This document shows positions 8,336 to 21,355 of a DNA stretch of 64,000 nucleotides, in pieces; position 1 is the stretch's first letter, and every line of letters begins with the position of its first letter. Origin of the DNA: Dictyostelium discoideum (lineage: Eukaryota); the NCBI GenBank assembly GCA_000004695.1, contig CM000151.3, positions 6,976,001 through 7,040,000 of the forward strand, read 5' to 3'. A model generated the notes under the pieces. It had not been told where the DNA came from and did not search any database. It saw only the letters and a list, made by a program, of their open reading frames with translations. Both the position numbers and the translations under genes were made by a program.

Positions 8336-10396
8336 TTAAAGTTCATCATGGTTTGGCATATCTTCACCAGCGCCATTTGGGGAACCACCAGCAGCACCAT
8401 ATAATTTAGAGAAGATTGGTTGAACGATCTTTTCAAGGATTTTGTATTGTTCATCAAATTCTTCTTTTTCGGCAGAGGAGTTAACATCCAACCAAGAAAG
8501 GGCATCAGAGATAGCGGTTTCAATGGTTTCTTTATCATCTGATTCGATTTTACCACCGATCTTATCTTTATCACCAATGGTGTTTTTAATTTGATAGATG
8601 TAATTTTCCAAGGTATTCTTGGCTTCGACACGTTCTTTGGCAGCTTTATCTTCATCAGCGGCATCGGCAGCTTCTTTGACCATACGATCGATATCGGCTT
8701 GTGAGAGACGTTCCTTATCGTTGGTAATGGTGATGGATTCTTTAGAACCAGAAGCTTTATCTTCAGCTGATACATGTAAAATACCATTGACATCCATTTC
8801 AAAGGTGACTTCAATTTGTGGGACACCTCTTTGAGCTGGTGGGATACCAGAGAGATCAAATTTACCCAAGAGATTGTTATCTTTGGTCATTGAACGTTCA
8901 CCTTCATAGATTTGAATGGAGACACGATCTTGATTATCTTGATAGGTTGAGAAAACTTGTGATTTCTTGGTTGGAACAAATGTACCTCTTGGGATTAAGG
9001 CAGTCATAACTCCACCAACGGTTTCAATACCGAGGGTGAGTGGGGCGATATCTAAGAGTACGAGAGTGTCAGTACCTTCTTCATTGGTGAAAATACCACC
9101 TTGAACGGCAGCACCATAGGCTACAGCCTCATCTGGATGAACACCACGATTTGGTTCTTTACCATTGAAAAAATCTTTTAAGAGTTGTTGAATCTTTGGA
9201 ATACGAGTTGAACCACCAACTAAAACTACTTCGTGGATTTGTGATTTCTTGAATTTGGCATCTTCTAATACCTTCTTTACTGGGTCTAAAGTCTTTTTGA
9301 AGAGATCCATATTGAGTTCTTCAAATTTGGCTCTGGTGAGGGTTTCAATGAGATCTTTACCATCAAAGAAGTTTTCAATCTCTAATTGGGTTTGTGGAGA
9401 GGTTGAGAGAATACGCTTGGCATTTTCAGCAGCTCTTCTTAATTTTTGGAGTGATTTCTTATCTTTTGAGGCATCTTTACCAGTCTTCTTTTGGAAAACG
9501 GTTAAGAAATGTTTCATAACACGTTGATCGAAATCTTCACCACCTAAATGAGTGTCACCATTGGTTGAACGAACTTCAAATACACCATCTTCAATGGATA
9601 AAACTGAAACATCAAATGTACCACCACCTAAATCGTAAACCAAGATATTCTTTTCCTTATCACCAGTGGCATCGAAACCATAGGCTAATGCTGCTGCGGT
9701 TGGTTCATTAATAACACGTAAAACTTCAAGACCTGCAATAACACCTGCATCCTTTGTGGCTGCACGTTGTGCATCATTGAAATAAGCTGGACATGTTACA
9801 ACGGCGTGAGTTACTGTCTTACCAAGGGATGCTTCGGCAATTTCCTTCATTCTACCAAGGATCATTGCTGAGATTTCTTCTGGTGAGTAAGTCTTTTCTT
9901 CACCTTTAACTTTAACTACAACGTATGGTTTATTATTTTTTGAAACAATTTTATATGGTAATAATTTCATATCTCTTTGAACTTCTTCATCATCAAATCT
10001 AAAAAAAAAAAAAATAAATAAAAAAATAATTAGTTATATATTTAAAAAAAAAAAAATAAATAAAAAATAATTAATTAATTACCTTCTACCAATTAAACGT
10101 TTAATATCAAAAATTGTATTTTCTGGGTTGAGAGTTGCTTGATTCTTTGCAGCTTCACCAATGAGACGTTCAGTTTCAGTGAATGCAACATATGATGGAG
10201 TAATACGATTACCTTGATCATTTGGAATAATTTCAACTTTACCTTTCTTGAAGACACCAACACATGAATAGGTAGTACCTAAATCAATACCAATAACACT
10301 TCCATAATCTTTCTTTTCTTCTTCTTTCTTTTCAGCTGCTGCTGCAAAAGAAATTAATAATAATAAACATAATAATGCGTAAATGGATTTATTCAT
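8336..10396 (-). CDS. grp78: ER-lumenal Hsp70 chaperone BiP/GRP78 (signal peptide, C-terminal HDEL). Two exons: 10081..10396 and 8336..9998.
   Basis: Exon 1 encodes [21 protein letters not shown]...[14 protein letters not shown]...LIGR. Donor ag|GTAATT at 10080. Acceptor tttAG at 10000-9999. Exon 2 continues [19 protein letters not shown], carries the full Hsp70 ATPase and substrate-binding domains, and ends [10 protein letters not shown]. Confidence 0.9.
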
Positions 10397-10871: not shown

Positions 10872-12861
10872 CATATTTTTTTTAAAAAAAAAAAAAAAAA
10901 AATAATAATTTGAACCAGATATATTTATAAATTTGAAATTTCTTAAAATATTTATTTATTTTTCCATTATTATTATTTTAATTTTTTTAACTTTTAATTA
11001 AATAATTTAAATATTTTCTTAAATAATAATTTTATTATTTTTTTTTTTTAAAATAATTAAATAATTTAAATGTTTTAAAAATTTTTTTTTTATTTTTTTA
11101 TTTCTTGTTAAATATTAATTCTTTTGATTTATTAATCAAATAACCACCAAAAACAATTATTTGATATAAATTAATTGATGAAAAATTAATTGGGGAAAAT
11201 TGAAAATAAAAAGGTATAAAAAAAAAAGTCCAATATATATATATATTTCCAAAAAAAAATATATATAAATATGTATATTTTTAAGGAAAAACCAAAATCA
11301 TCCCATTTTAAAAAGCGTTACATATGCCGTTCCTAAATTTCCAGCTTATTTCAATGATATACAAGTTTACCTACTAAAATACAGCTGGTGGTGTATTATT
11401 AAGAGGTCTTCAAGTATTAACAAAGTTAATAATGACCCAACTGCAGCTCTGCATTTATTATTTTATTATATAAGTGGTTTTTGAAATTTAATTATTTAAT
11501 TATTTATTGTTTGAATTTCAAAAGGTTCCAGTCAGTTAAGTCAAGTTAAATTTTTTTTAAAAAAAAAATGTAAAGAAAAAAACCAACTTTTAAAATTAAT
11601 TATAACCATTGATTTAATTCTAAATACGAAACTTTTAAAACTTTTTTTTTTTTTTTTTTTTGATGGAATTTCTTATTCCATAATATCGTATTTTAAAAGT
11701 AGATAAACAAATTTTTTAAAAAAAAAAATAAAAAAATAAAATAAAATAAAATATTGTTATATAATTTTCTAAAAAAATAAAATAAAAAAAAAAAAAAATA
11801 ATAATATTTTAAAATCTCTCTTTTTACTTGTTGAAATCATACTCAAAAAAAAAGAATTTTTTTTTAATGTAAAAATTGTTTAAAATAATGAATTAGCTTT
11901 GCTTGTATATCAACATATCTACTCTACAAATTATAAAAAAAACAGTGGGTGTTTTGTCTGATTAATTTTTTTTTTTATTTTTTTATTTTTTTTTTTTTTA
12001 TTTTTTATTTTTTTTTTAATTAATTTTTAGTTCAATCAAATAAAACTATAAATAATATTTTTTATTTTTATTTTATTGATATTAAATAAAAAATCATAAA
12101 ATCAAATTTTAAAAATAAAAAATAAATAAAATAATTAATTATTAAACTAAAAAAAAACAAAAAAAAAAAAAAAAAAAAAAATATTTATAATTATAAAATG
12201 TTTCTTAGTATGTTTTATTTCTTTACAATTAATTAGAATCAAAAAAATTTTTTATTCATTTTTTTTTTATATTTTTATTAATTAAATATTTAATTATTTT
12301 ATTTAGAATTATTAATTTCATTATCAAATAAAAAGAATTCTTCATTAAATTCAATTTCAAATGAATTTAATAATAACTTAAATTATTCAATTAATAATAT
12401 TTCAAATAAAAATTCAATTACATCCGTTTCATATTTTACAAGACCAAATTTTGTAAATTATTAATTTATTAATTTAATAATTTAATTCTGGAAAAAAAAA
12501 AAAAAAAAAAAAAAAAAAAGAATGAAAATTAAAAAATATTCAAACGTTATTTATTTATTTATTTATTTGTAAAAATAATATAAAAAAAAAAAAATAAAAA
12601 TAAAAATTAATAATAATCTTGTTGTTCAACACTATAAAATAAAAAATTTAAAAACAAAGCAAAAAAATTATGTTTCCCCCCCAGATGTCGACGTATTTTA
12701 TTCTTCTAAATTTAAAATTTATTTTTTAATTTTTTTTTAAAATTTTAAAATTTTTATTCTTTTTTTTATTTTTTTTTAATATAAAGGGTAATAAATTCTT
12801 ACAAATTATTCACATGTGGTATGAATTAAGTGTGTGTATTCATTTATTTTATTGAACAAAC

Positions 12862-12900
<39 letters not shown>

Positions 12901-12935
12901 ATTATAAAAAAATCAAATAATTAATTTATTAATTA

Positions 12936-14122
12936 ATGGCAACAAGAGATAGAACACCATCATATCTTTTATTAAAAATCGAATATAACAATAGAAGACC
13001 CATTAACCATAAGAAATCAACATCAAATTATGAAACATTAGATGAAGAGAATAGAAATGGTATGATACCATTAGTATCATTAAACAATAATAATTATAAA
13101 AATGGCGCAAATATTGATACTAGTCCAAAATTACAACAATTAAATGTAATACCTGCGTGGATGCAAAGAATAAATGATATAGATGTAAATCTATCAAAAA
13201 TTCATTCTCAAAGTAAGTTTTTTTTTTTTTTATTTTTTTAATTTTTATTTTTTTTTTTTTTATTTCCTAAACTATACATATTAATTTTTTTTATTTTTTA
13301 TTTTTTTTTTAATAATAATAATAAATAGTTGAAAAATTAAAAGGATATCATGATAAAAATTTATTACCAGATATGAGTTTGGAAGATCAATCAGATTTAG
13401 AAAGATCAATTGAAATTACTACTTCTGAAACTACAAGAGTATTTATTTTTAAAATAATAAAAAAAAAAAAAAAAAAAAACTAATTTTTTATATATTTTTA
13501 GTTATTCCATAAAACACATGATATGATAATAAATTTAGGTGGTGATAAAGGTACAATTTTTACATCAGAAGATATAAAGATTAAAAAAAATGTACAACAA
13601 TCGAAATCAGCGAAATTACAATCATTATCAGTATTATTTAGACGAAAACAAAGTAATTATTTAAAAGCATTAAGAAAAAGGTCAAATTCATTTACAGATT
13701 TATATAATAAAAGTGGACTTGCTAAAGAAGAAGAAGAAGAAGAAGGAGAAGGAGAAGAGGAAAATCAACTTTGGCAAGAAATCGAATTCGATTTTACAAA
13801 TGAACAAAAACAAATAGTCAAATTAATGGAAATTGAAATTTCATCAAGAGATAAAGAAATTAGAAATCTACTTGAATCAATCAATGATTTAACTCGATTA
13901 TTTCAAGATATAAGTTTATTAGTTGCTCAACAAGGTACTATATTAGATAGAATAGATTATAATTTAAATGAAACCGAGTCAATGGTAACTGACGCAACAG
14001 ATGTAGTTATTATAATAAATAAAAAGCATAAAGAATATAGATCAAGATTATGTATATTAATGGTTTTAGTTGCTTTAGTTGTTTCAATGATTTTCATTAT
14101 TATTTTAAAAATGGTATTCTAA
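12936..14122 (+). CDS. Syntaxin-16/Tlg2-like Qa-SNARE, copy 1. Three exons: 12936..13212, 13329..13438 and 13502..14122.
   Basis: N-terminal MATRDRTPSYLLL peptide (SM-protein-binding type). Donors a|GTAAGT and aga|GTATTT. Acceptors aaatAG and ttttAG. SNARE motif LFQDISLLVAQQGTILDRIDYNL followed by a C-terminal TM anchor. Confidence 0.8.
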
Positions 14123-14159
14123 TTTTATAAAATTAAAAAATAAAATAAAGTTAAATTTT

Positions 14160-14224
<65 letters not shown>

Positions 14225-14869
14225 AATTAATTCTAAATTTTTATGAAAATTTTATTATTGATGATATTTTTATTTTGTGGAGCTTTAAAATTGAAGTGAT
14301 TGATAACTACACACTGTTTAGGGGGGTTTGATTTTTATTACTTTTTGATTTTCAGACCACGAAAACAATTTTTTATTTTTTTTTTTTTGACACATTCACA
14401 AAAAAAAAGTTTGCCCCTGGTGATGAAGAATTTAAAAATATCTTTTATGTCAAAAAATTCCTTAATCTAGATTTTTTTGGAAAAAAATTTTTATTTCATA
14501 GAAAAAAACAGAAAATCTGATTTTCTGGTGATTGTCAAAAAAAAAAAAAAATAAAAAAAAATAAAATTTTTTTTGTTTTTTTTTTTTTGTTTTTTTTTTA
14601 CTTTTTTTTTTTTTTTTTAATTTTAAAATCAAGTGTTGTGCTAAAAGGTGCCGTAGTAAAATATAAAAAAAAAAAAAGTATTGTTGAAACACAAAACAAC
14701 ACGTTTTTTTTCTGAAAAAAAAAAAAAAAACAAAAAAAAACAGAACCAAACAAAAAATAAAAAAAATAAAAAAAATAAATAAATAAAATAAAAATAAATA
14801 AAAATAAATAAAAATAAATAAAAAAAAAAAATAAAAAAAATAGGGTTTAGAAATCATAATTTTTAAAAA

Positions 14870-16122
14870 ATGGCAACAAGAGACATAACATCATCATATA
14901 TTTTATCAAGAACAGAATGTAAAAATCGTGCAAAAATAATAAATAGTGCAATTAATATTAATATTAAAAAATCAGGATCAGGTTATAAAAGATTAGAAGA
15001 AGAGAATTATCAAGATATTGATATTGATAATAATAATAATAATAATAATATAAATAATAATAATATAAATAATAATGACAATGATAATGATACTACTAAT
15101 AATATAAAGAACAGTAATAATAATAATGATATACAATTAAATATACTCGATACTGAAATAAATATAGAACAATTAAATTCATTACCACCATGGATTCTAA
15201 AATTAAATGATATAGATGAGAATATTAAAAAAATTATATCATTAAGTATGTCTTTTTTTTTTTTTATCATCATCCCATTTTAAAAAAAATAATTATTAAT
15301 TAAAAAAAAAAAAAAAATAAAGTTGAAAAATTTAAAAAATATTTAAAAGAAGATATTGATAAAATTTTAGCAGAAGATATTGAAATGGAAAGTAGAATTG
15401 ATTGTGAAAGATCAATTGAACTTTTAACGATGGAAACAATTAGATTATTTCATAAAACATTTGATATGATAAAGTATTTAAATAAAAGTAATAATTCAAG
15501 TCAAGGTGAAAATAAAATGAAAAAGAATACACAGAGAATGAAATCTGCAAAATTAAAAGCATTATTAATAACATTCAAACATATTCAAAGGTCATATTTA
15601 GCATTGTTAAAGAAAGTATCAAGTTTACAACGGAGTTTATCTTCATCATTTTTATATAGAAGTGGTGAATATGATGTAAATAATGATAATGAAGATTATG
15701 GTGAGAATAGTAGTATTAGCAATTCACATTATCTTCAACATCATCACAACAACAACCACCACCATGAAGATGATCATGATCATGAGGAAGATCATGAAGA
15801 GATTATGGATGAATTAAATGAAATGGCAACTACATTAATTGAAAGACAAAGAGTATCTCAATTAATTAAAGAAACTTCTCATTTAATTCAAGACGTTGGC
15901 TCAATGTGTGTAAAAAAAGATTCAATTTTTGATAGAATAGATTACAATTTAGCTGAAGGTGAAGAATTAGAATTTAATGGTACTATTTTAATTTGTGATG
16001 GTATTACTAATGGTTATGAAAGACCAGAAAATGAAAAAAGAAAAAAATTATTATTGATTTTTGCTGTTTTAATCATAGTAATATTGTTCATATTTATTTT
16101 AAAATATGTAATTGAAATTTAA
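14870..16122 (+). CDS. Divergent syntaxin-16/Tlg2-like paralog, copy 2. Two exons: 14870..15245 and 15323..16122. The second intron is absent.
   Basis: N-terminus MATRDITSSYIL. Donor a|GTATGT at 15246. Acceptor ataaAG at 15321-15322. The exon 2 and exon 3 equivalents are fused (…ERSIELLTMETIRLFHKTFDMIKYL). His/Asp-rich insert (HHHNNNHHHEDDHDHEEDHEE). SNARE motif IQDVGSMCVKKDSIFDRIDYNL, where KKD replaces QQG. TM anchor present. Confidence 0.7.
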
Positions 16123-16584
16123 ATTATAAATACTAAATAAATAAAACAAAGAAATAAATAATTAAATAAATTTATTTTTACATCGGATACCAGTAAAAAA
16201 AAAAAAAAAAAAATTGAAAAATCCAAGAATTTCTTTTCATATTTATTTTAAATTTTTATATTTTATAAAATTAAAAATTAATTATTTTATTTTATTATTA
16301 TTTATTATTTTCTGGAAAGCAGAAAAAATCAAAATTATCAAAAGCATTATAATTTGATTTTATCAATAATTTGGATTCATATTGCTAATAAATTTTATTT
16401 TCAAATAAATAAAAAAAAAAATAAAAAAAAAAAAATTTATAAAAAATTTTAATTTCAAAAAATAATAATATTTAATAATAAAATAATAATAACAAAATTA
16501 AAATTAAAGAAATAATAATATATAAAATAAAAATAAAATAATTGTTTTATTTAATTAAATTATTATTATTAATTTAATTAAAAT

Positions 16585-16621
<37 letters not shown>

Positions 16622-16968
16622 TTAATAATATTTTAAAAAGATTATTTTGTTTGATTTTTAAAAAAAAAAAAAGTCATCGTGAGCAAACAATCAGTTTTTT
16701 AAAAAATAGATTAATTAATAAAAAAAAGAATTCATTATTACCATCTTGTTATTAAATTTACCCAATCTTCTGCATTAATTACTTTATTTTTGACATTTTA
16801 AGAAACAAAGTTTTAATAATTTTTTTATTATCCAAGAATTAAATACAATTTTTGAATTAATGCAAAATAAAAGAAATAAATTTAAAAAACAAAAAAATAA
16901 AAGTAAAAATAAAAAACAAAAAAATAAAAATAAAAATAAAAAAAAAGTAATTATGTCTGGTAATGATT

Positions 16969-17009
<41 letters not shown>

Positions 17010-17305
17010 TTTTTTTTATTTTTGTTTTAAAAATTAACGACCACCTCAATAAAACCAAAAATTAAAAAAAAAAAAAAAAAAAAAAATTTATAAAAAATAT
17101 CAAAATAATTGTGCGTTTCAAATTATTTTTTTTATTTATTTATTTAATAACAATAACAAAAAGGATTAATAAAACTTTACAACTAAACAGCAAAGATTAT
17201 AATTTCTTAATTAATAAACAAAACACACACCCACACATATACATATATATATATATATTTATTTTTATAAATATATATATATTAATTATTATATAGCAGA
17301 CCTAA

Positions 17306-18463
17306 ATGGCAACAAGAGATAGAACCCCTTCATTTAATTTAATAAAATCAGAATACAAGAATAGAAGACCCTCAAGACACTATGGTAATGAATCAGATGA
17401 AGATAGTAATAATGTACCATTAGTATCTCTTAATAGAGCTGGAAATAATATTCATAATAACAATAATAATGACCTTAATTTACAAAAATTAAATGTATTA
17501 CCAGCATGGATGCAAAGAGTTAATGATATAGATGTAAACTTAACAAAAATTTCACAACAAAGTAAGTAATATATTCTTCTTCTTTTTTTTTTTTATTCAT
17601 TCATTCATTTATTTAAAATATTTAACCTAAAAAGATAAAATTATTAACAACAACAACAACAACAACAACAATAATAATACATAATAATAATAATAATAAA
17701 TAGTTGAAAAATTAAAAGGATATCATGATAAAAATTTATTACCAGATATGAGTATGGAAGATCAATCGGATTTAGAAAGATCAATTGAAATTACAACTGC
17801 TGAAACTACAAGAGTATTTATCAACATATTATTATTAATAAAATAATTAAATAATAAAAATACTAACATTATTAATATTTTTAGTTATTTCATAAAACAC
17901 ATGATATGATAAAAAATTTAGGTGGTAAAGGTACAATATTATCAGCAGAAGATATGAAAATGAAAAAGAATATACAATCAAGTAAATCAGCAAAATTACA
18001 ATCACTTTCATTATCATTTAGACAAAAACAAAGAACTTATTTAACAGCATTACAAAAAAGGTCAAATTCATTTTCAGATTTGTATAATGACCAAAATGAT
18101 GATGATGATGGTGAAAATGCAATCGATTTAGATTTTACAGATGAATTAAAACAAGTTGTAAATGCAATGGAAGAAGAAATCACTCAAAGAGATAAAGAAA
18201 TTAGAAAAATCGTTGCATCAATCAATGATTTATCTCATTTATTCCAAGATATAAGTGTATTGGTTGTTCAACAAGGTACTTTATTAGATAGAATAGATTA
18301 TAATTTAAATCAAACTGAAGCATATACTCAAGAAGCAGTCGTTGAAATTGATGAAACAAATAAAATACATAAAGAATATAGAACTAGATTATGTATATTA
18401 ATGATTTTAGTTGCTTTGGTTGTTGCAATGGTTTTCATATTTATTCTTAGATTCATTTTTTAA
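17306..18463 (+). CDS. Syntaxin-16/Tlg2-like Qa-SNARE, copy 3. Three exons: 17306..17561, 17704..17813 and 17885..18463.
   Basis: Same exon structure and phases as copy 1. MATRDRTPSFNLIKSEYKNRRP...LFQDISVLVVQQGTLLDRIDYNL, then TM. Confidence 0.8.
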
Positions 18464-18953: not shown

Positions 18954-21355
18954 TTATTGAGTTTGTGGTCTACTATTATTACTACTATTACTCATATTTA
19001 ATTGATGTAAAGAAGAAACGCTATTTCTAAAAGCCATACCAGAACTTTGATTTAATGAATTATTTGTTGAATTTGAACCATTTACAATTGTTTTCAAGTT
19101 AATATTTTCATTTCTTAGATAAGAATTTTCTGATTGAAGAACATCCAATTGAGTTTGAAGTTTAGAAACCAAATTTGGATCGGTTGGAGATAAAACTTGA
19201 CCATTACTAGTATTGAGAAGGTTTTGTTGTTGAAGCCAATTGGTGAGTGTGGATATCTTATCTTCAAGATAGGAAATATGAGTTGCTTGGGAGTCGAGTT
19301 TTGATTGAATTTTATTATTCTTTCTACCACTGGTACCTCTACTACTCTTTTTATATTTTGAAGATTTATAATCTCTATCTCTACTTCTGTCTCTACTTCT
19401 ATCAGAATCAGATGATCTATCTCTGGATTTATTTCTACTATCACGACTTCTACTTCTTCTTCTGTTGGAATGACTTCTTGAACGATCTCTACTTCTATCC
19501 CTACTATCAGAATCTCTACTTCTTGAACGATCTCTGCTTCTATCTCTACTTCTATCTCTATCCCTTTCTCTACTTCTATCTCTTGAACGATCTCTACTTC
19601 TATCTCTATCTCTTGAACGATCTCTACTTCTATCTCTTTCTCTATCTCTACTTCTATCTCTTGAACGATCTCTACTTCTGTCTCTATCTCTTTCTCTGTC
19701 TCTATCTCTTTCCCTTTCTCTTTCTCTATCTCTGTCTCTTGAACGATTATGTCTATCTCTTTCTCTTTCTCTGTCTCTACTAACATTTCTACTTCTAGAG
19801 TTTTTATAGGTTTTATTAGAACGATCACGGTCACGTTCACGTTCACGATCTCTTTTACTATTGCTACTACTGCTACTGCTCTTTTTCTTTTTATAAGATT
19901 TTCTATCACTTTCATATCTACTAGAGTGTTCATCAGAGCTCGAAGTATGAGAGGTTGAATCTGAACTCTCTGATAAAGAGGAGGCTCTTGATGATTGTCT
20001 AGATTTTGATTTATTTGATTTACTGGTAGAGTTATTTTCTTTATCGGAAGATGGAGATGGGGGTTTTGATAGAGCACTACCCGATGCAGATATTAATTCT
20101 CTATTGTATGCGCCATTACTACTAATACTACTATTATTACTATTTATCATAGCTGGATCTTGTTGTTGTTGTGGTATTTGTTGTTGATGTTGTAATGGTG
20201 ATTTTGGTGAGGTTGTAACCAATGATGGAATATTACCATGAGATGAAGAGGATGGTATACTACCTTCTTTCTTTGGTGAGGTTTTTGGTGGAGTTATTAA
20301 ATCAGATTGATTTAATTTAACAATATTTATAGCGTTGATCGGACTTGGAGTTTTAATTGGTTGTTGTAGTTGATGTTGTTGTTGTGGTGGTTGTAAGGTT
20401 TGAGGTTGTTGAGTGTTATTTACAACAGTTGTTGATGCTGCTGAAGATGTTGGGTGAATTGAACTATGTGCTAAACCATGAACATTACTATGTGCGCTTG
20501 CACCCAAATTACTACTGGCGTTATGGTTCGGTATACTTCCAGATGAATGGGATAAATGATGATGTTGTTGTTGTTGGTGATAAGCAGCTGCAGTAACTGG
20601 AATAGCTGTTGGTAAGGTTAATGGTACAACTGGTGGAGGAACGACAGTCGATGATGATCCAAGTGCTGTATGATTACTTGTTGGTGTAGATGTTCTACTA
20701 TGACTTGGTGTTGAACCTGGTGATGTTGATGGTGTGTGTGATGGCGTTTCAAATGGTGATTGAGTTAAATTTTCTTTAGTTTTATTATTATTATTATTAT
20801 TATTATTTGATGGATTTGTAGTTGTAGTTGTAGTTGTTGTAGTTGTAGTTGATGAATTATTATTATCATTATTTTCATTTGGAAATATCCATTCATCAGC
20901 TGAATTACTATGACCAGTATCAAATTGTGGTGAAGAAGTATTTCTAAGCATAGCAAATGAATCTTCGGATAACATTTGATATCTTTGACCTAATGGTGGT
21001 AATTTTGCCAAAATATGTTGAACTAAATAATCTGGTTTCTTTGCTTGCTTAAAGAATCTATGTTCTAAAAGTTTTGAAGGTAATGGTCTTTTAGATGGAT
21101 CCTTTTGAAGACATTTTTCAACTAAATCTTTAAAACTATGAGACCATTTACTTTCGCCATCCCCCTCCAATGATGGTGGTGGGTTTTGAAGTGTCAATAA
21201 TAAAACTTTCATTGGTGGATATTCTGCAAAAGGTGCCTTACCTCTTGCAAGTTCTAATGCTGTAATACCAAATGACCAAATATCAACTGCATAATCATAA
21301 TTAACTTGTTCCATAATTTCCTAAATTTTTTAAAAAAAATAAAATAAAATAATTA

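What the first reader, a model, noticed from the sequence alone, without database searches (positions are those of the whole stretch)
12936..18463. Tandem triplication of Tlg2/syntaxin-16-like Qa-SNARE genes; the middle copy has lost an intron and its zero-layer glutamine
Three paralogs lie head-to-tail within 5.5 kb. All begin with MATRD (the N-peptide type bound by Vps45-class SM proteins), and all end in a SNARE motif plus a TM anchor. Copies 1 and 3 share a 3-exon structure with identical intron phases and a canonical ...LVAQQGTILDRIDYNL / ...LVVQQGTLLDRIDYNL motif. Copy 2 (14870..16122) has exons 2 and 3 fused, which is precise intron loss. It carries a His/Asp-rich insert. It reads MCVKKDSIFDRIDYNL, so the zero-layer Gln that defines Q-SNAREs is replaced by Lys/Asp. 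A membrane-anchored syntaxin without its ionic-layer Q could act as an inhibitory or regulatory SNARE, or be on its way to pseudogenisation.
Basis: partly seen in the sequence, partly recalled or inferred. Interest (0 to 1): 0.7.

Follow-up and report, generated by a model that had tools for sequence, protein, structure and literature searches.

The report
Conserved syntaxin-16 paralog with lysine zero-layer
Three syntaxin-16/Tlg2-type membrane-fusion genes lie side by side in Dictyostelium discoideum, and the middle one has swapped the defining central glutamine for lysine yet has been kept by natural selection in at least five species, so it is a working but unconventional (probably regulatory) SNARE, not a dying gene.

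Summary
The window is D. discoideum AX4 chromosome 2. My three gene models equal the annotated proteins XP_643157 (c1), XP_643158/DDB_G0276515 (c2) and XP_643159 (c3). All three are Syx16/Tlg2-type Qa-SNAREs.

- **Zero layer.** By alignment to syntaxin-1A Q226 and Tlg2, c1 and c3 have Gln. c2 has Lys324; the Asp replaces the following Gly.
- **Intron loss.** c2 lacks intron 2, which is present in c1, c3, D. purpureum and P. violaceum.
- **Not a pseudogene.** Intact c2 orthologs exist in five species, all reading MCVKKDS. dN/dS is 0.18-0.39 (p<1e-8 against neutrality).
- **Where c2 is constrained.** The Habc domain (0.13) and SNARE layers -7..+3 (0.11) are tightly constrained. Layers +4..+8 are relaxed (0.52), Gly/Pro-rich and not predicted helical.
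- **Rarity.** Among 113 fetched proteins, mostly Syx16/Tlg2 family members, only c2 and its D. citrinum duplicate have Lys at layer 0.
- **Origin.** The "triplication" looks composite. c3 pairs with a D. purpureum gene at another locus, c1 with a second D. purpureum gene beside the same HSP70 neighbour, and c2 is a tandem copy of c1.

Most likely c2 is a non-fusogenic regulatory SNARE. That role is inferred, not shown. I found no expression data.

The parts
12936..14122 (+). c1: divergent Syx16/Tlg2 paralog (XP_643157.1, Q869U2), 3 exons (12936-13212, 13329-13438, 13502-14122); Gln273 at layer 0 (13931-13933)
   Evidence: Pfam SNARE scores 21.1 bits, below the 26.8 cut-off. Whole-gene dN/dS is 0.19-0.49, but layers +4..+8 are nearly neutral at 0.73.
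14870..16122 (+). c2: DDB_G0276515 (XP_643158.1, Q551H6), 2 exons (14870-15245, 15323-16122), 391 aa; the non-Q paralog
   Evidence: Orthologs are intact in D. discoideum wild isolates, D. cf. discoideum, D. citrinum (2 strains), D. dimigraforme and D. firmibasis. dN/dS is 0.18-0.39.
14870..14911 (+). c2 N-peptide MATRDITSSYILSR
   Evidence: It keeps R4, Y10 and R14, which by my hand alignment (no tool call) correspond to Tlg2 R3, Y9 and R13. It has lost R6, which is I, Q or N in c2 orthologs. (PMC7470827). dN/dS over residues 1-24 is 0.65.
15182..15639 (+). c2 Habc domain (residues ~105-231; spans intron 1 at 15246-15322)
   Evidence: AF2 predicts three helices (107-141, 147-179, 186-238) with pLDDT 83-93. 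The top Foldseek hits are closed syntaxins Sso2, Sso1, Stx1 and Tlg2. dN/dS is 0.13.
15442..15447 (+). Site in c2 where intron 2 (phase 0) is missing: codons R166|L167
   Evidence: The intron sits at the homologous alignment column in c1, c3, the D. firmibasis copy cY, D. purpureum P0027 and P. violaceum. D. purpureum P0045 has the same three-exon structure.
15724..15801 (+). c2 His/Asp/Glu-rich linker insert (residues 260-285)
   Evidence: It is His-rich in every c2 ortholog and its length varies. The C-terminal part, EDDHDHEEDHEEIMDELNEMA, is well conserved.
15844..16002 (+). c2 SNARE motif, layers -7..+8 (residues 300-352). Core residues are R V I T I V C K F I L G E G I G
   Evidence: The layer table is. 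Layers -7..+3 have dN/dS 0.11 and layers +4..+8 have 0.52. The AF2 helix 280-321 breaks at 322-326, and residues 338-362 have pLDDT below 50.
15916..15918 (+). Layer-0 codon AAA = Lys324 (Gln in c1, c3 and the rest of the family)
   Evidence: Alignment to Stx1A Q226 and to Tlg2. The Lys is invariant in all c2 and cX copies, and D. dimigraforme uses the synonymous codon AAG. In the family tally, K occurs only in c2/cX: Q 104, K 8, S 1.
16048..16113 (+). c2 C-terminal transmembrane anchor
   Evidence: AF2 predicts helix 361-390. dN/dS for the juxtamembrane region plus TMD is 0.30.
17306..18463 (+). c3: canonical, slowly evolving Syx16/Tlg2 ortholog (XP_643159.1, Q551H5), 3 exons (17306-17561, 17704-17813, 17885-18463); Gln252 at layer 0 (18272-18274)
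   Evidence: Pfam SNARE scores 28.6 bits, above the cut-off. Match to Tlg2 structure 6xm1 has E=5e-21. dN/dS is 0.01-0.15. AF2 predicts one continuous helix 208-313 with pLDDT 81-90. c3 groups with D. purpureum P0027 at 89.5% bootstrap.

Best explanation
The locus holds three Syx16/Tlg2-type (Qa.III.a) syntaxin genes with different fates.

- **c3** is the conserved housekeeping endosome/TGN Qa-SNARE.
- **c1** is an older, faster-evolving paralog.
- **c2 (DDB_G0276515)** arose as a tandem copy of c1 in the ancestor of the D. discoideum species complex. It lost intron 2, diverged rapidly, and was then held by purifying selection.

c2 keeps the parts of a syntaxin that contact the SM protein and start SNARE assembly: most of the N-peptide, the Habc bundle, SNARE layers -6..+3 including the invariant DRIDYNL (+2/+3) segment, and the membrane anchor. 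It has replaced the layer-0 Gln with Lys. Its membrane-proximal half (layers +4..+8 plus the juxtamembrane linker) is Gly/Pro-rich, weakly constrained and probably non-helical.

The most likely mechanism is inferred, not shown. c2 is a membrane-anchored, non-fusogenic regulatory syntaxin. It would engage Vps45 and/or the cognate Qb, Qc and R partners but could not complete C-terminal zippering, so it would titrate or brake Syx16-dependent fusion, as an i-SNARE does.
For: **Identity.** The gene models equal the AX4 RefSeq proteins. Tlg2 is the best solved-structure match. Foldseek's top hits for the c2 model are syntaxins.

**Layer 0.** c2 has Lys at layer 0 in ungapped alignments with Stx1A and Tlg2.

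**Functional retention.**
- Intact ORFs with the same exon structure in 7 genomes of 5 species.
- dN/dS 0.18-0.39, with Fisher p from 2e-9 to 2e-16 in the six pairs tested.
- Lys324 and Cys321 are invariant; one ortholog uses the synonymous Lys codon AAG.
- Internal contrast: the D. citrinum secondary duplicate cX has dN/dS 0.75, not distinguishable from neutral. c2 in the same two strains has 0.09.

**Pattern of constraint in c2.** Habc 0.13, SNARE layers -7..+3 0.11, juxtamembrane+TMD 0.30, layers +4..+8 0.52, N-peptide 0.65.

**Core residues.** c2 departs from the family at layers -7 (R), -4 (T), -1 (C), 0 (K), +4 (G), +5 (E) and +8 (G). It has 4-6 Gly/Pro in the post-+3 segment, against 0-2 in the family.

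**Structure prediction with the same 35 sequences.** c3 gives one continuous helix 208-313 (pLDDT 81-90). c2 breaks at 322-326 and is non-helical with low confidence in the C-terminal part of the motif and the juxtamembrane linker: no helix 346-360, pLDDT below 50 over 338-362.

**SM contacts.** The published Vps45 contacts on Tlg2 are the N-peptide Arg/Tyr residues, Habc, and the +2/+3 helix (PMC7470827). These map onto the parts that c2 conserves.

**Origin.** c2+cX form a 100% clade nested in the c1 clade, and c2 shares the N-terminal motif KKS.S.Y..LEEEN with c1. Intron 2 is present in outgroups.

**Rarity.** An exhaustive phmmer scan of 1.84 billion representatives found c2-type proteins only in this species complex. 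Lys at layer 0 occurs only in c2/cX among the 113 fetched proteins.
Against: - I have no expression, localisation or binding data for c2.
- Purifying selection shows function but not which function.
- Lys is basic like Arg, so c2 could still sit in a functional 0-layer with a compensating partner.
- Gly at +6 is normal for this family.
- c1, which keeps Gln, also has a nearly neutral +4..+8 segment at 0.73. Relaxation there is therefore not unique to c2.
- Fusion can proceed without complete zippering when Sec17/Sec18 are present (title and abstract of PMC8143792).
- The AF2 models have modest confidence (mean pLDDT 62) and rest on a shallow 35-sequence alignment.
- One of the three Arg contacts of the N-peptide (R6) is lost in c2, so Vps45 binding may be weakened.
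- The NJ tree places c2 inside the c1 clade in a way that long-branch attraction may distort.
Confidence: 0.45

Rival explanations
1. c2 is still a fusogenic Qa-SNARE serving a lineage-specific trafficking step. Its Lys sits in a re-balanced ionic layer, for example paired with a partner that carries Gln, Glu or Asp where Arg normally sits. Its odd C-terminal half still zippers, or is compensated by Sec17/Sec18.
For: There is strong constraint on layers -7..+3 and invariance of the unusual core residues C(-1), K(0) and T(-4). That pattern is what co-evolution with a specific partner bundle would produce. The TMD is retained and constrained. Fusion without completed zippering has been reported (PMC8143792).
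Against: The core has a charged Glu at +5 and Gly at +4 and +8. There are 4-6 Gly/Pro residues and a longer linker before the TMD. dN/dS is 0.52 there, and AF2 predicts no continuous SNARE-TMD helix, unlike c3. No compensating partner was looked for.
Confidence: 0.25
2. c2 has left SNARE-complex biology altogether. It would work as a tail-anchored Habc/coiled-coil scaffold, for example a receptor or sink for Vps45 or a tether. Its conserved His/Asp/Glu-rich linker would act as a metal- or pH-sensitive element.
For: Habc is the best-conserved domain (dN/dS 0.13). The His/acidic insert is c2-specific and present in all orthologs. Pfam no longer recognises the SNARE motif.
Against: [quoted passage not shown] The DRIDYNL segment is invariant. 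Both facts argue that the motif is still used.
Confidence: 0.15
3. c2 is a decaying duplicate (incipient pseudogene), or the annotated exon containing KKD is not really coding.
For: c2 sits on a long branch. Pfam finds no SNARE hit. No expression evidence was found. The related copy cX in D. citrinum does evolve near-neutrally.
Against: The ORF is open in 7 genomes, with dS up to about 0.5 between them. dN/dS is significantly below 1 (p<1e-8), and is 0.11 exactly over the KKD-containing segment. The splice sites and phase of intron 1 are conserved.
Confidence: 0.03

Closest known systems
Syntaxin 16 / Tlg2 (Qa.III.a SNAREs; structure 6xm1/6xmd, Vps45-Tlg2)
   Same: The N-peptide is of the MATRDxT..[FY] type. 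There is an Habc three-helix bundle, an acidic linker, a SNARE motif with ...DRIDYN..., and a C-terminal TMD. Tlg2 is the best solved-structure match for both c3 and c2. c3 fits in every tested respect.
   Different: c2 has Lys instead of Gln at layer 0 and non-canonical core residues at -7, -4, -1, +4, +5 and +8. It carries a His-rich insert and a Gly/Pro-rich, longer juxtamembrane segment. It has lost one N-peptide Arg, and Pfam SNARE does not detect it.
i-SNAREs (Varlamov et al. 2004, PMC2171956)
   Same: The concept is a SNARE that substitutes for, or binds to, a subunit of a fusogenic SNAREpin and forms a non-fusogenic complex (abstract). c2's conserved N-terminal half and non-canonical C-terminal half fit that logic.
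   Different: The i-SNAREs tested in that paper were Golgi-localised SNAREs added as a fifth SNARE to fusogenic sets (abstract). c2 would be a dedicated, sequence-specialised one. No inhibitory activity has been shown for c2.
tSNARE1 (bioRxiv 10.1101/2021.02.09.430442)
   Same: It appeared in the i-SNARE literature search as a SNARE-family protein that regulates endolysosomal trafficking (title and abstract). It is therefore a possible precedent for a regulatory rather than fusogenic SNARE.
   Different: From my own knowledge, not checked here: most tSNARE1 isoforms lack a membrane anchor and keep a canonical SNARE domain. c2 keeps its anchor but alters the zero layer and the C-terminal half. 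I read only the abstract, which is cut off in the listing.
Engineered 0-layer mutants (Q-to-R and R-to-Q swaps in yeast exocytic and vacuolar SNAREs)
   Same: A basic residue is placed at a Q position of the ionic layer.
   Different: Those are laboratory mutations in otherwise intact motifs. c2 is a natural, selected Q-to-K change combined with other core changes. The comparison rests on my own knowledge of that literature, which I did not read here.

Membership tests
Qa-SNARE, Syx16/Tlg2 subtype (Qa.III.a) | N-terminal SM-binding N-peptide (Tlg2 residues 1-14, with Arg3/5/13 and a buried Tyr9) | tested here: met
   c1 and c3 have R4, R6, Y/F10 and K14. c2 has R4, Y10 and R14 but I/Q/N at position 6, so it meets this only partly. 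Actual binding was not testable.
Qa-SNARE, Syx16/Tlg2 subtype (Qa.III.a) | Habc three-helix bundle | tested here: met
   AF2 predicts three long helices with pLDDT 83-93 in c2 and a similar result in c3. Foldseek's top PDB hits are Sso2, Sso1, Stx1 and Tlg2.
Qa-SNARE, Syx16/Tlg2 subtype (Qa.III.a) | Recognisable SNARE motif (Pfam PF05739 at or above the gathering score) | tested here: inconclusive
   c3 scores 28.6 bits, above the 26.8 cut-off. c1 scores 21.1, below it. c2 gets no hit. phmmer still aligns c2's motif to Tlg2 with E=2e-4.
Qa-SNARE, Syx16/Tlg2 subtype (Qa.III.a) | Glutamine at the zero ionic layer | tested here: not met
   c2 does not meet it: Lys324. c1 (Q273) and c3 (Q252) do. 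By this feature c2 is not a Q-SNARE in the strict sense.
Qa-SNARE, Syx16/Tlg2 subtype (Qa.III.a) | Hydrophobic heptad core through layers +4..+8, continuous with the TMD helix | tested here: not met
   c2's core residues at +4 to +8 are G, E, G, I, G, with 4-6 Gly/Pro and no continuous AF2 helix. c3 meets the feature. This rests on prediction only.
Qa-SNARE, Syx16/Tlg2 subtype (Qa.III.a) | C-terminal transmembrane anchor | tested here: met
   All three copies have one.
Qa-SNARE, Syx16/Tlg2 subtype (Qa.III.a) | Binds Vps45, pairs with Vti1 + Syx6/Tlg1 + an R-SNARE, and localises to TGN/endosomes | not testable with these tools
   This needs biochemistry and imaging.
i-SNARE (functional class) | Forms a non-fusogenic complex by replacing or binding a subunit of a fusogenic SNAREpin, and so inhibits fusion | not testable with these tools
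   There is only indirect sequence and selection evidence.
Pseudogene / processed retrocopy | Disabled ORF or neutral evolution; for a retrocopy, loss of all introns | tested here: not met
   The ORF is intact in 7 genomes. dN/dS is 0.18-0.39 with p<1e-8. Intron 1 is retained with conserved phase.

The most novel reading that the evidence does not exclude
DDB_G0276515 and its orthologs would be a naturally evolved, dedicated 'K-SNARE'. [quoted passage not shown] Its Lys zero layer and unzippable C-terminal half arrest assembly, giving the D. discoideum species complex a genetically encoded brake on Syx16-dependent fusion.
Probability: 0.3. Interest if true: 0.7.

Novelty: new variant of a known kind. 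Interest (0 to 1): 0.5.

Why it matters
The 3Q:1R zero layer is the defining and almost invariant feature of SNAREs. Among the 113 proteins fetched here, mostly Syx16/Tlg2 relatives, only this clade has Lys at layer 0. A Qa-SNARE that changed this residue and has been kept under selection is therefore a natural experiment on what the ionic layer and C-terminal zippering are for.

The protein sits in a haploid, genetically tractable amoeba. Knock-outs, K324Q swaps and reconstitution are straightforward there. Its two neighbours, one canonical (c3) and one intermediate (c1), provide built-in controls.

If c2 proves inhibitory, it would be one of very few dedicated i-SNAREs. If it proves fusogenic, it would show that a Lys-containing zero layer works in vivo. 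In either case the current annotation of DDB_G0276515 as 'hypothetical protein' can be improved.

Tried and rejected
1. **Pfam on c2.** No family was found. I used phmmer against PDB and the paralog alignment instead.
2. **Literature on the genes.** Searches for DDB_G0276515, Q551H6, Q551H5, Q869U2 and syn16A/B found nothing on these genes. The only trace is one RNA-seq paper naming 'syn16a', with no indication of which copy it is.
3. **Supplementary tables.** I checked five transcriptome or proteome papers for expression. Four hold no supplementary text. The fifth listed only DDB_G0276513, which I cannot map to a copy.
4. **P0019.** This 48-aa 'representative' of c2's 90% cluster is an unrelated sequence, a clustering artefact.
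5. **AX4 c2 locus look-up.** The look-up of encoding contigs has no record for the AX4 c2 protein, so cDNA-derived contigs could not be checked.
6. **Error corrected.** My first conclusion that outgroup dictyostelids have a single Syx16 gene was wrong. D. purpureum, P. violaceum, T. lacteum and A. subglobosum each have a second paralog. I redid the tree and the origin scenario.
7. **NJ placement of c2.** The tree puts c2 next to D. dimigraforme c1. I reject that detail as long-branch attraction, because c2 orthologs exist in all five species.
8. **Timing of the c1/c3 split.** It remains ambiguous. Synteny and N-terminal motifs favour c1 being the ortholog of D. purpureum P0045. Overall, though, c1 is closer to c3 and P0027, and pS between c1 and c3 is low (0.27). 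That is compatible with gene conversion or with a younger duplication.
9. **Extra copies in AX4.** tblastn found no remnant of a fourth copy in the AX4 spacers 14123-14869 and 16123-17305.

Full report
**What is there.** The region is extremely AT-rich eukaryotic DNA. Splicing the ORF fragments at GT..AG sites gives three + strand genes:
- c1: 12936-13212, 13329-13438, 13502-14122; 335 aa.
- c2: 14870-15245, 15323-16122; 391 aa.
- c3: 17306-17561, 17704-17813, 17885-18463; 314 aa.

An exact-sequence look-up shows these are the Dictyostelium discoideum AX4 proteins XP_643157.1 (Q869U2, 't-SNARE family protein'), XP_643158.1 (DDB_G0276515, Q551H6, 'hypothetical protein') and XP_643159.1 (Q551H5), on an 8.48-Mb contig, i.e. 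chromosome 2. Intron 1 is phase 1 in all three genes. Intron 2 is phase 0 in c1 and c3 only. The flanking genes are an HSP70 (8336-9970, - strand) and a protein kinase (18954-21314, - strand).

**Family.** c3 matches the solved Tlg2 Qa-SNARE (6xm1/6xmd) best, with E=5e-21, ahead of syntaxin-1A. c2 also matches Tlg2 best, with E=2e-4. Pfam's SNARE model passes its cut-off only for c3 (28.6 bits). c1 is sub-threshold at 21.1 bits, and c2 is not detected. Many family members fetched from across eukaryotes begin with MATR[DN]xT. Vertebrate Stx16-like sequences begin with MATRRLTDAF (P0062, P0100). This supports the Syx16/Tlg2 (Qa.III.a; PMC2639358) assignment.

**Layer 0.** The HMMER alignments of c3 with Stx1A and Tlg2 through the SNARE motif are ungapped, as is the alignment of c2's motif with Tlg2. 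They place Stx1A Q226 opposite the second Q of c1/c3 'QQG' and opposite the second K of c2 'KKD'. c2's layer-0 residue is therefore Lys324 (AAA, 15916-15918), and Asp325 replaces the next Gly.

The full core of c2 (layers -7..+8) reads R V I T I V C K F I L G E G I G. The dictyostelid canonical copies read I I I L F I V Q L I L T T/V A/G I T. c2 thus deviates at -7, -4, -3, -1, 0, +4, +5 and +8. It also has 4-6 Gly/Pro residues between +4 and the anchor (0-2 in relatives) and a longer juxtamembrane linker.

**Is c2 decaying?** No. A word-indexed search found c2 orthologs in other D. discoideum isolates, D. cf. discoideum, D. citrinum and D. firmibasis. All carry MCVKKDS. I fetched the loci and rebuilt the gene models. 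An intact c2 is also present in D. dimigraforme, where the deposited annotation fuses it into a 440-aa model.

Nei-Gojobori dN/dS among orthologs:

| Copy | dN/dS |
|---|---|
| c3 | 0.01-0.15 |
| c1 | 0.19-0.64 (0.19-0.49 excluding the two D. citrinum strains compared with each other) |
| c2 | 0.18-0.39 between species; 0.09 between the two D. citrinum strains |

For the six c2 pairs tested, the excess of synonymous change is significant, with Fisher p from 2e-9 to 2e-16.

Regional dN/dS in c2:

| Region | dN/dS |
|---|---|
| Habc | 0.13 |
| SNARE layers -7..+3 (including the Lys) | 0.11 |
| Juxtamembrane + TMD | 0.30 |
| SNARE layers +4..+8 | 0.52 |
| N-terminal 24 residues | 0.65 |

Lys324 is invariant, and D. 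dimigraforme encodes it with the synonymous codon AAG.

An internal control shows what relaxation looks like. D. citrinum has a further c2-derived copy (cX, FCIEK[DN]S). Between two strains it has dN/dS 0.75, not different from 1 (p=0.42). c2 in the same two strains has 0.09. The same selection signal over 15844-16002 also rules out a splice pattern that skips the KKD segment.

**How rare is it?** A phmmer scan of c2's exon 2 against 1.84 billion cluster representatives found only two c2-type clusters: c2 itself and cX. Everything else was generic Syx16/Tlg2.

**Structure predictions.** I used the same 35 sequences for both predictions.
- c3 is predicted as an Habc bundle plus one continuous helix from the SNARE motif through the TMD (208-313, pLDDT 81-90).
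- c2 has a confident Habc bundle (pLDDT 83-93) and a SNARE helix 280-321. The helix breaks at 322-326, around the Lys. Confidence is low over 338-362 (pLDDT below 50) with no helix over 346-360, before the TMD helix 361-390.

Foldseek's best PDB matches for the c2 model are closed syntaxins (Sso2, Sso1, Stx1, Tlg2) with probability about 1 but weak E-values. These are predictions of modest confidence and I use them as support only.

**Origin.** Intron 2 lies at the same alignment column and phase in c1, c3, D. purpureum P0027 and P. violaceum. D. purpureum P0045 has the same three-exon structure. Intron 2 is absent from c2 and cX, and from T. lacteum. c2's state is therefore a precise loss.

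I first thought the outgroups were single-copy. That was wrong. D. purpureum, P. violaceum, T. lacteum and A. subglobosum each have a second Syx16-like gene. Three points follow:
- In D. purpureum the second gene (P0045) lies a few kb from the same 658-aa HSP70 gene that flanks the array in D. firmibasis, D. dimigraforme, the wild D. discoideum isolate and D. cf. discoideum; AX4 has an HSP70 ORF at the corresponding position.
- The c3-like gene (P0027) sits elsewhere, next to DUF1365 and MBOAT genes, as in P. violaceum.
- In an NJ tree, c3 groups with P0027 (89.5%). c2+cX form a 100% clade nested in the c1 clade. P0045 joins c1/c2 only weakly, at 44%.

c2 shares c1-specific N-terminal motifs. 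The simplest reading has three parts. c1 and c3 are older paralogs that became neighbours only in the D. discoideum complex. c2 is a tandem duplicate of c1. The array keeps changing: there is an extra c1-like copy in D. firmibasis and cX in D. citrinum.

One caveat applies. c1 is overall more similar to c3/P0027 than to P0045. pS between c1 and c3 is low, 0.27 overall and about 0.1 around exon 2. That suggests gene conversion or a younger duplication, and I cannot separate the two.

**Mechanism.** What c2 conserves coincides with what Vps45 contacts on Tlg2 in the crystal structure: N-peptide Arg/Tyr residues, Habc, and the +2/+3-layer helix (PMC7470827). c2 keeps R4, Y10, R14, Habc and an invariant DRIDYNL, and has lost R6. 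What c2 has changed is what a fusogenic bundle needs: the ionic-layer Gln and a helical, hydrophobic membrane-proximal half.

This fits a membrane-anchored, assembly-competent but fusion-incompetent regulator. [quoted passage not shown] This step is inference.

Several points count against it:
- c1 also has a nearly neutral +4..+8 segment (0.73).
- Gly at +6 is normal in the family.
- Lys could take part in a re-balanced ionic layer.
- Fusion without complete zippering is documented (PMC8143792).
- I found no expression data.

My confidence is about 0.9 that c2 is a functional, selected gene. It is about 0.45 that c2 acts as a non-fusogenic regulator, about 0.25 that it is a specialised fusogenic SNARE, about 0.15 that it has a SNARE-independent role, and 0.03 or less that it is a pseudogene.

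**Novelty and verdict.** The three genes are annotated in the reference genome, and dictyBase uses the name syn16a (PMC12954983). I found no paper describing DDB_G0276515, its Lys zero layer, its conservation or the array's history. It is a new variant of a known kind. It is of moderate interest to SNARE biologists and directly testable in Dictyostelium.

Noticed in passing
L001:6383-7530 (D. firmibasis): A fourth array member lies between c1 and c2. It is a c1-like 3-exon copy (exon 2 is 101 nt rather than 110 nt). It keeps Gln at layer 0 but has a one-residue insertion right after it (LLVKDQGILLLDRIDYN), which would shift the heptad register. The deposited model is 288 aa; mine is 331 aa.
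   Followed up: partly
L002:9522-10485 and L009:6001-6971 (D. citrinum, two strains): This is a c2-derived extra copy, cX (FCIEK[DN]S; Lys at layer 0; no intron 2; no His-rich insert). It evolves near-neutrally between strains (dN/dS 0.75, p=0.42). The deposited 254-aa model P0017 lacks the TMD because of an implausible 20-nt terminal exon. A 288-aa read-through ORF with a TMD is intact.
   Followed up: yes
window:13329-13438 vs window:17704-17813: Exon 2 of c1 and exon 2 of c3 differ at only 4 of 110 nt. Synonymous divergence between c1 and c3 drops to about 0.1 around exon 2 in most of the four species examined, against 0.3-0.6 elsewhere. This suggests gene conversion between the non-adjacent paralogs.
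   Followed up: partly
L010:10001-11098 (D. purpureum GL870957): D. purpureum has a second, fast-evolving Syx16 paralog (DICPUDRAFT_26866; QQSGVLDNIENN instead of QQGTLLDRIDYN). It lies beside the HSP70 gene that flanks the D. discoideum array. P. violaceum, T. lacteum and A. subglobosum also have second copies. Syx16 duplication is therefore recurrent in dictyostelids.
   Followed up: partly
L003:11725-15162 (D. dimigraforme): The deposited annotation merges c2 into a 440-aa gene. The real c2 ORF (11725-12148 / 12273-13060, 403 aa) is intact. It carries a much longer poly-Asn tract than the AX4 copy.
   Followed up: partly
P0038 and P0044: P0038 is a Logan assembly from an unknown organism. 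It is a Syx16-like protein with Ser at layer 0 (VVDSGTILDRIDYN). P0044 (Synstelium polycarpum, 399 aa) contains two Syx16-type SNARE motifs in one model; it is either a fusion or two merged tandem genes.
   Followed up: no
window:18954-21314 (- strand): The downstream protein-kinase gene encodes a very long Arg/Asp/Ser dipeptide-repeat tail (RDRERERDRDR...SRDRSRDRSRDR) plus poly-Thr, poly-Asn and poly-Gln tracts.
   Followed up: no
window:14166-14224 and window:15005-15130: A (TTTA)n microsatellite lies in the c1-c2 spacer. A poly-Asn/Asp-coding tract lies in c2 exon 1, and its length differs in every ortholog (absent to about 40 residues). It is a hypervariable low-complexity region between the N-peptide and Habc.
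   Followed up: no
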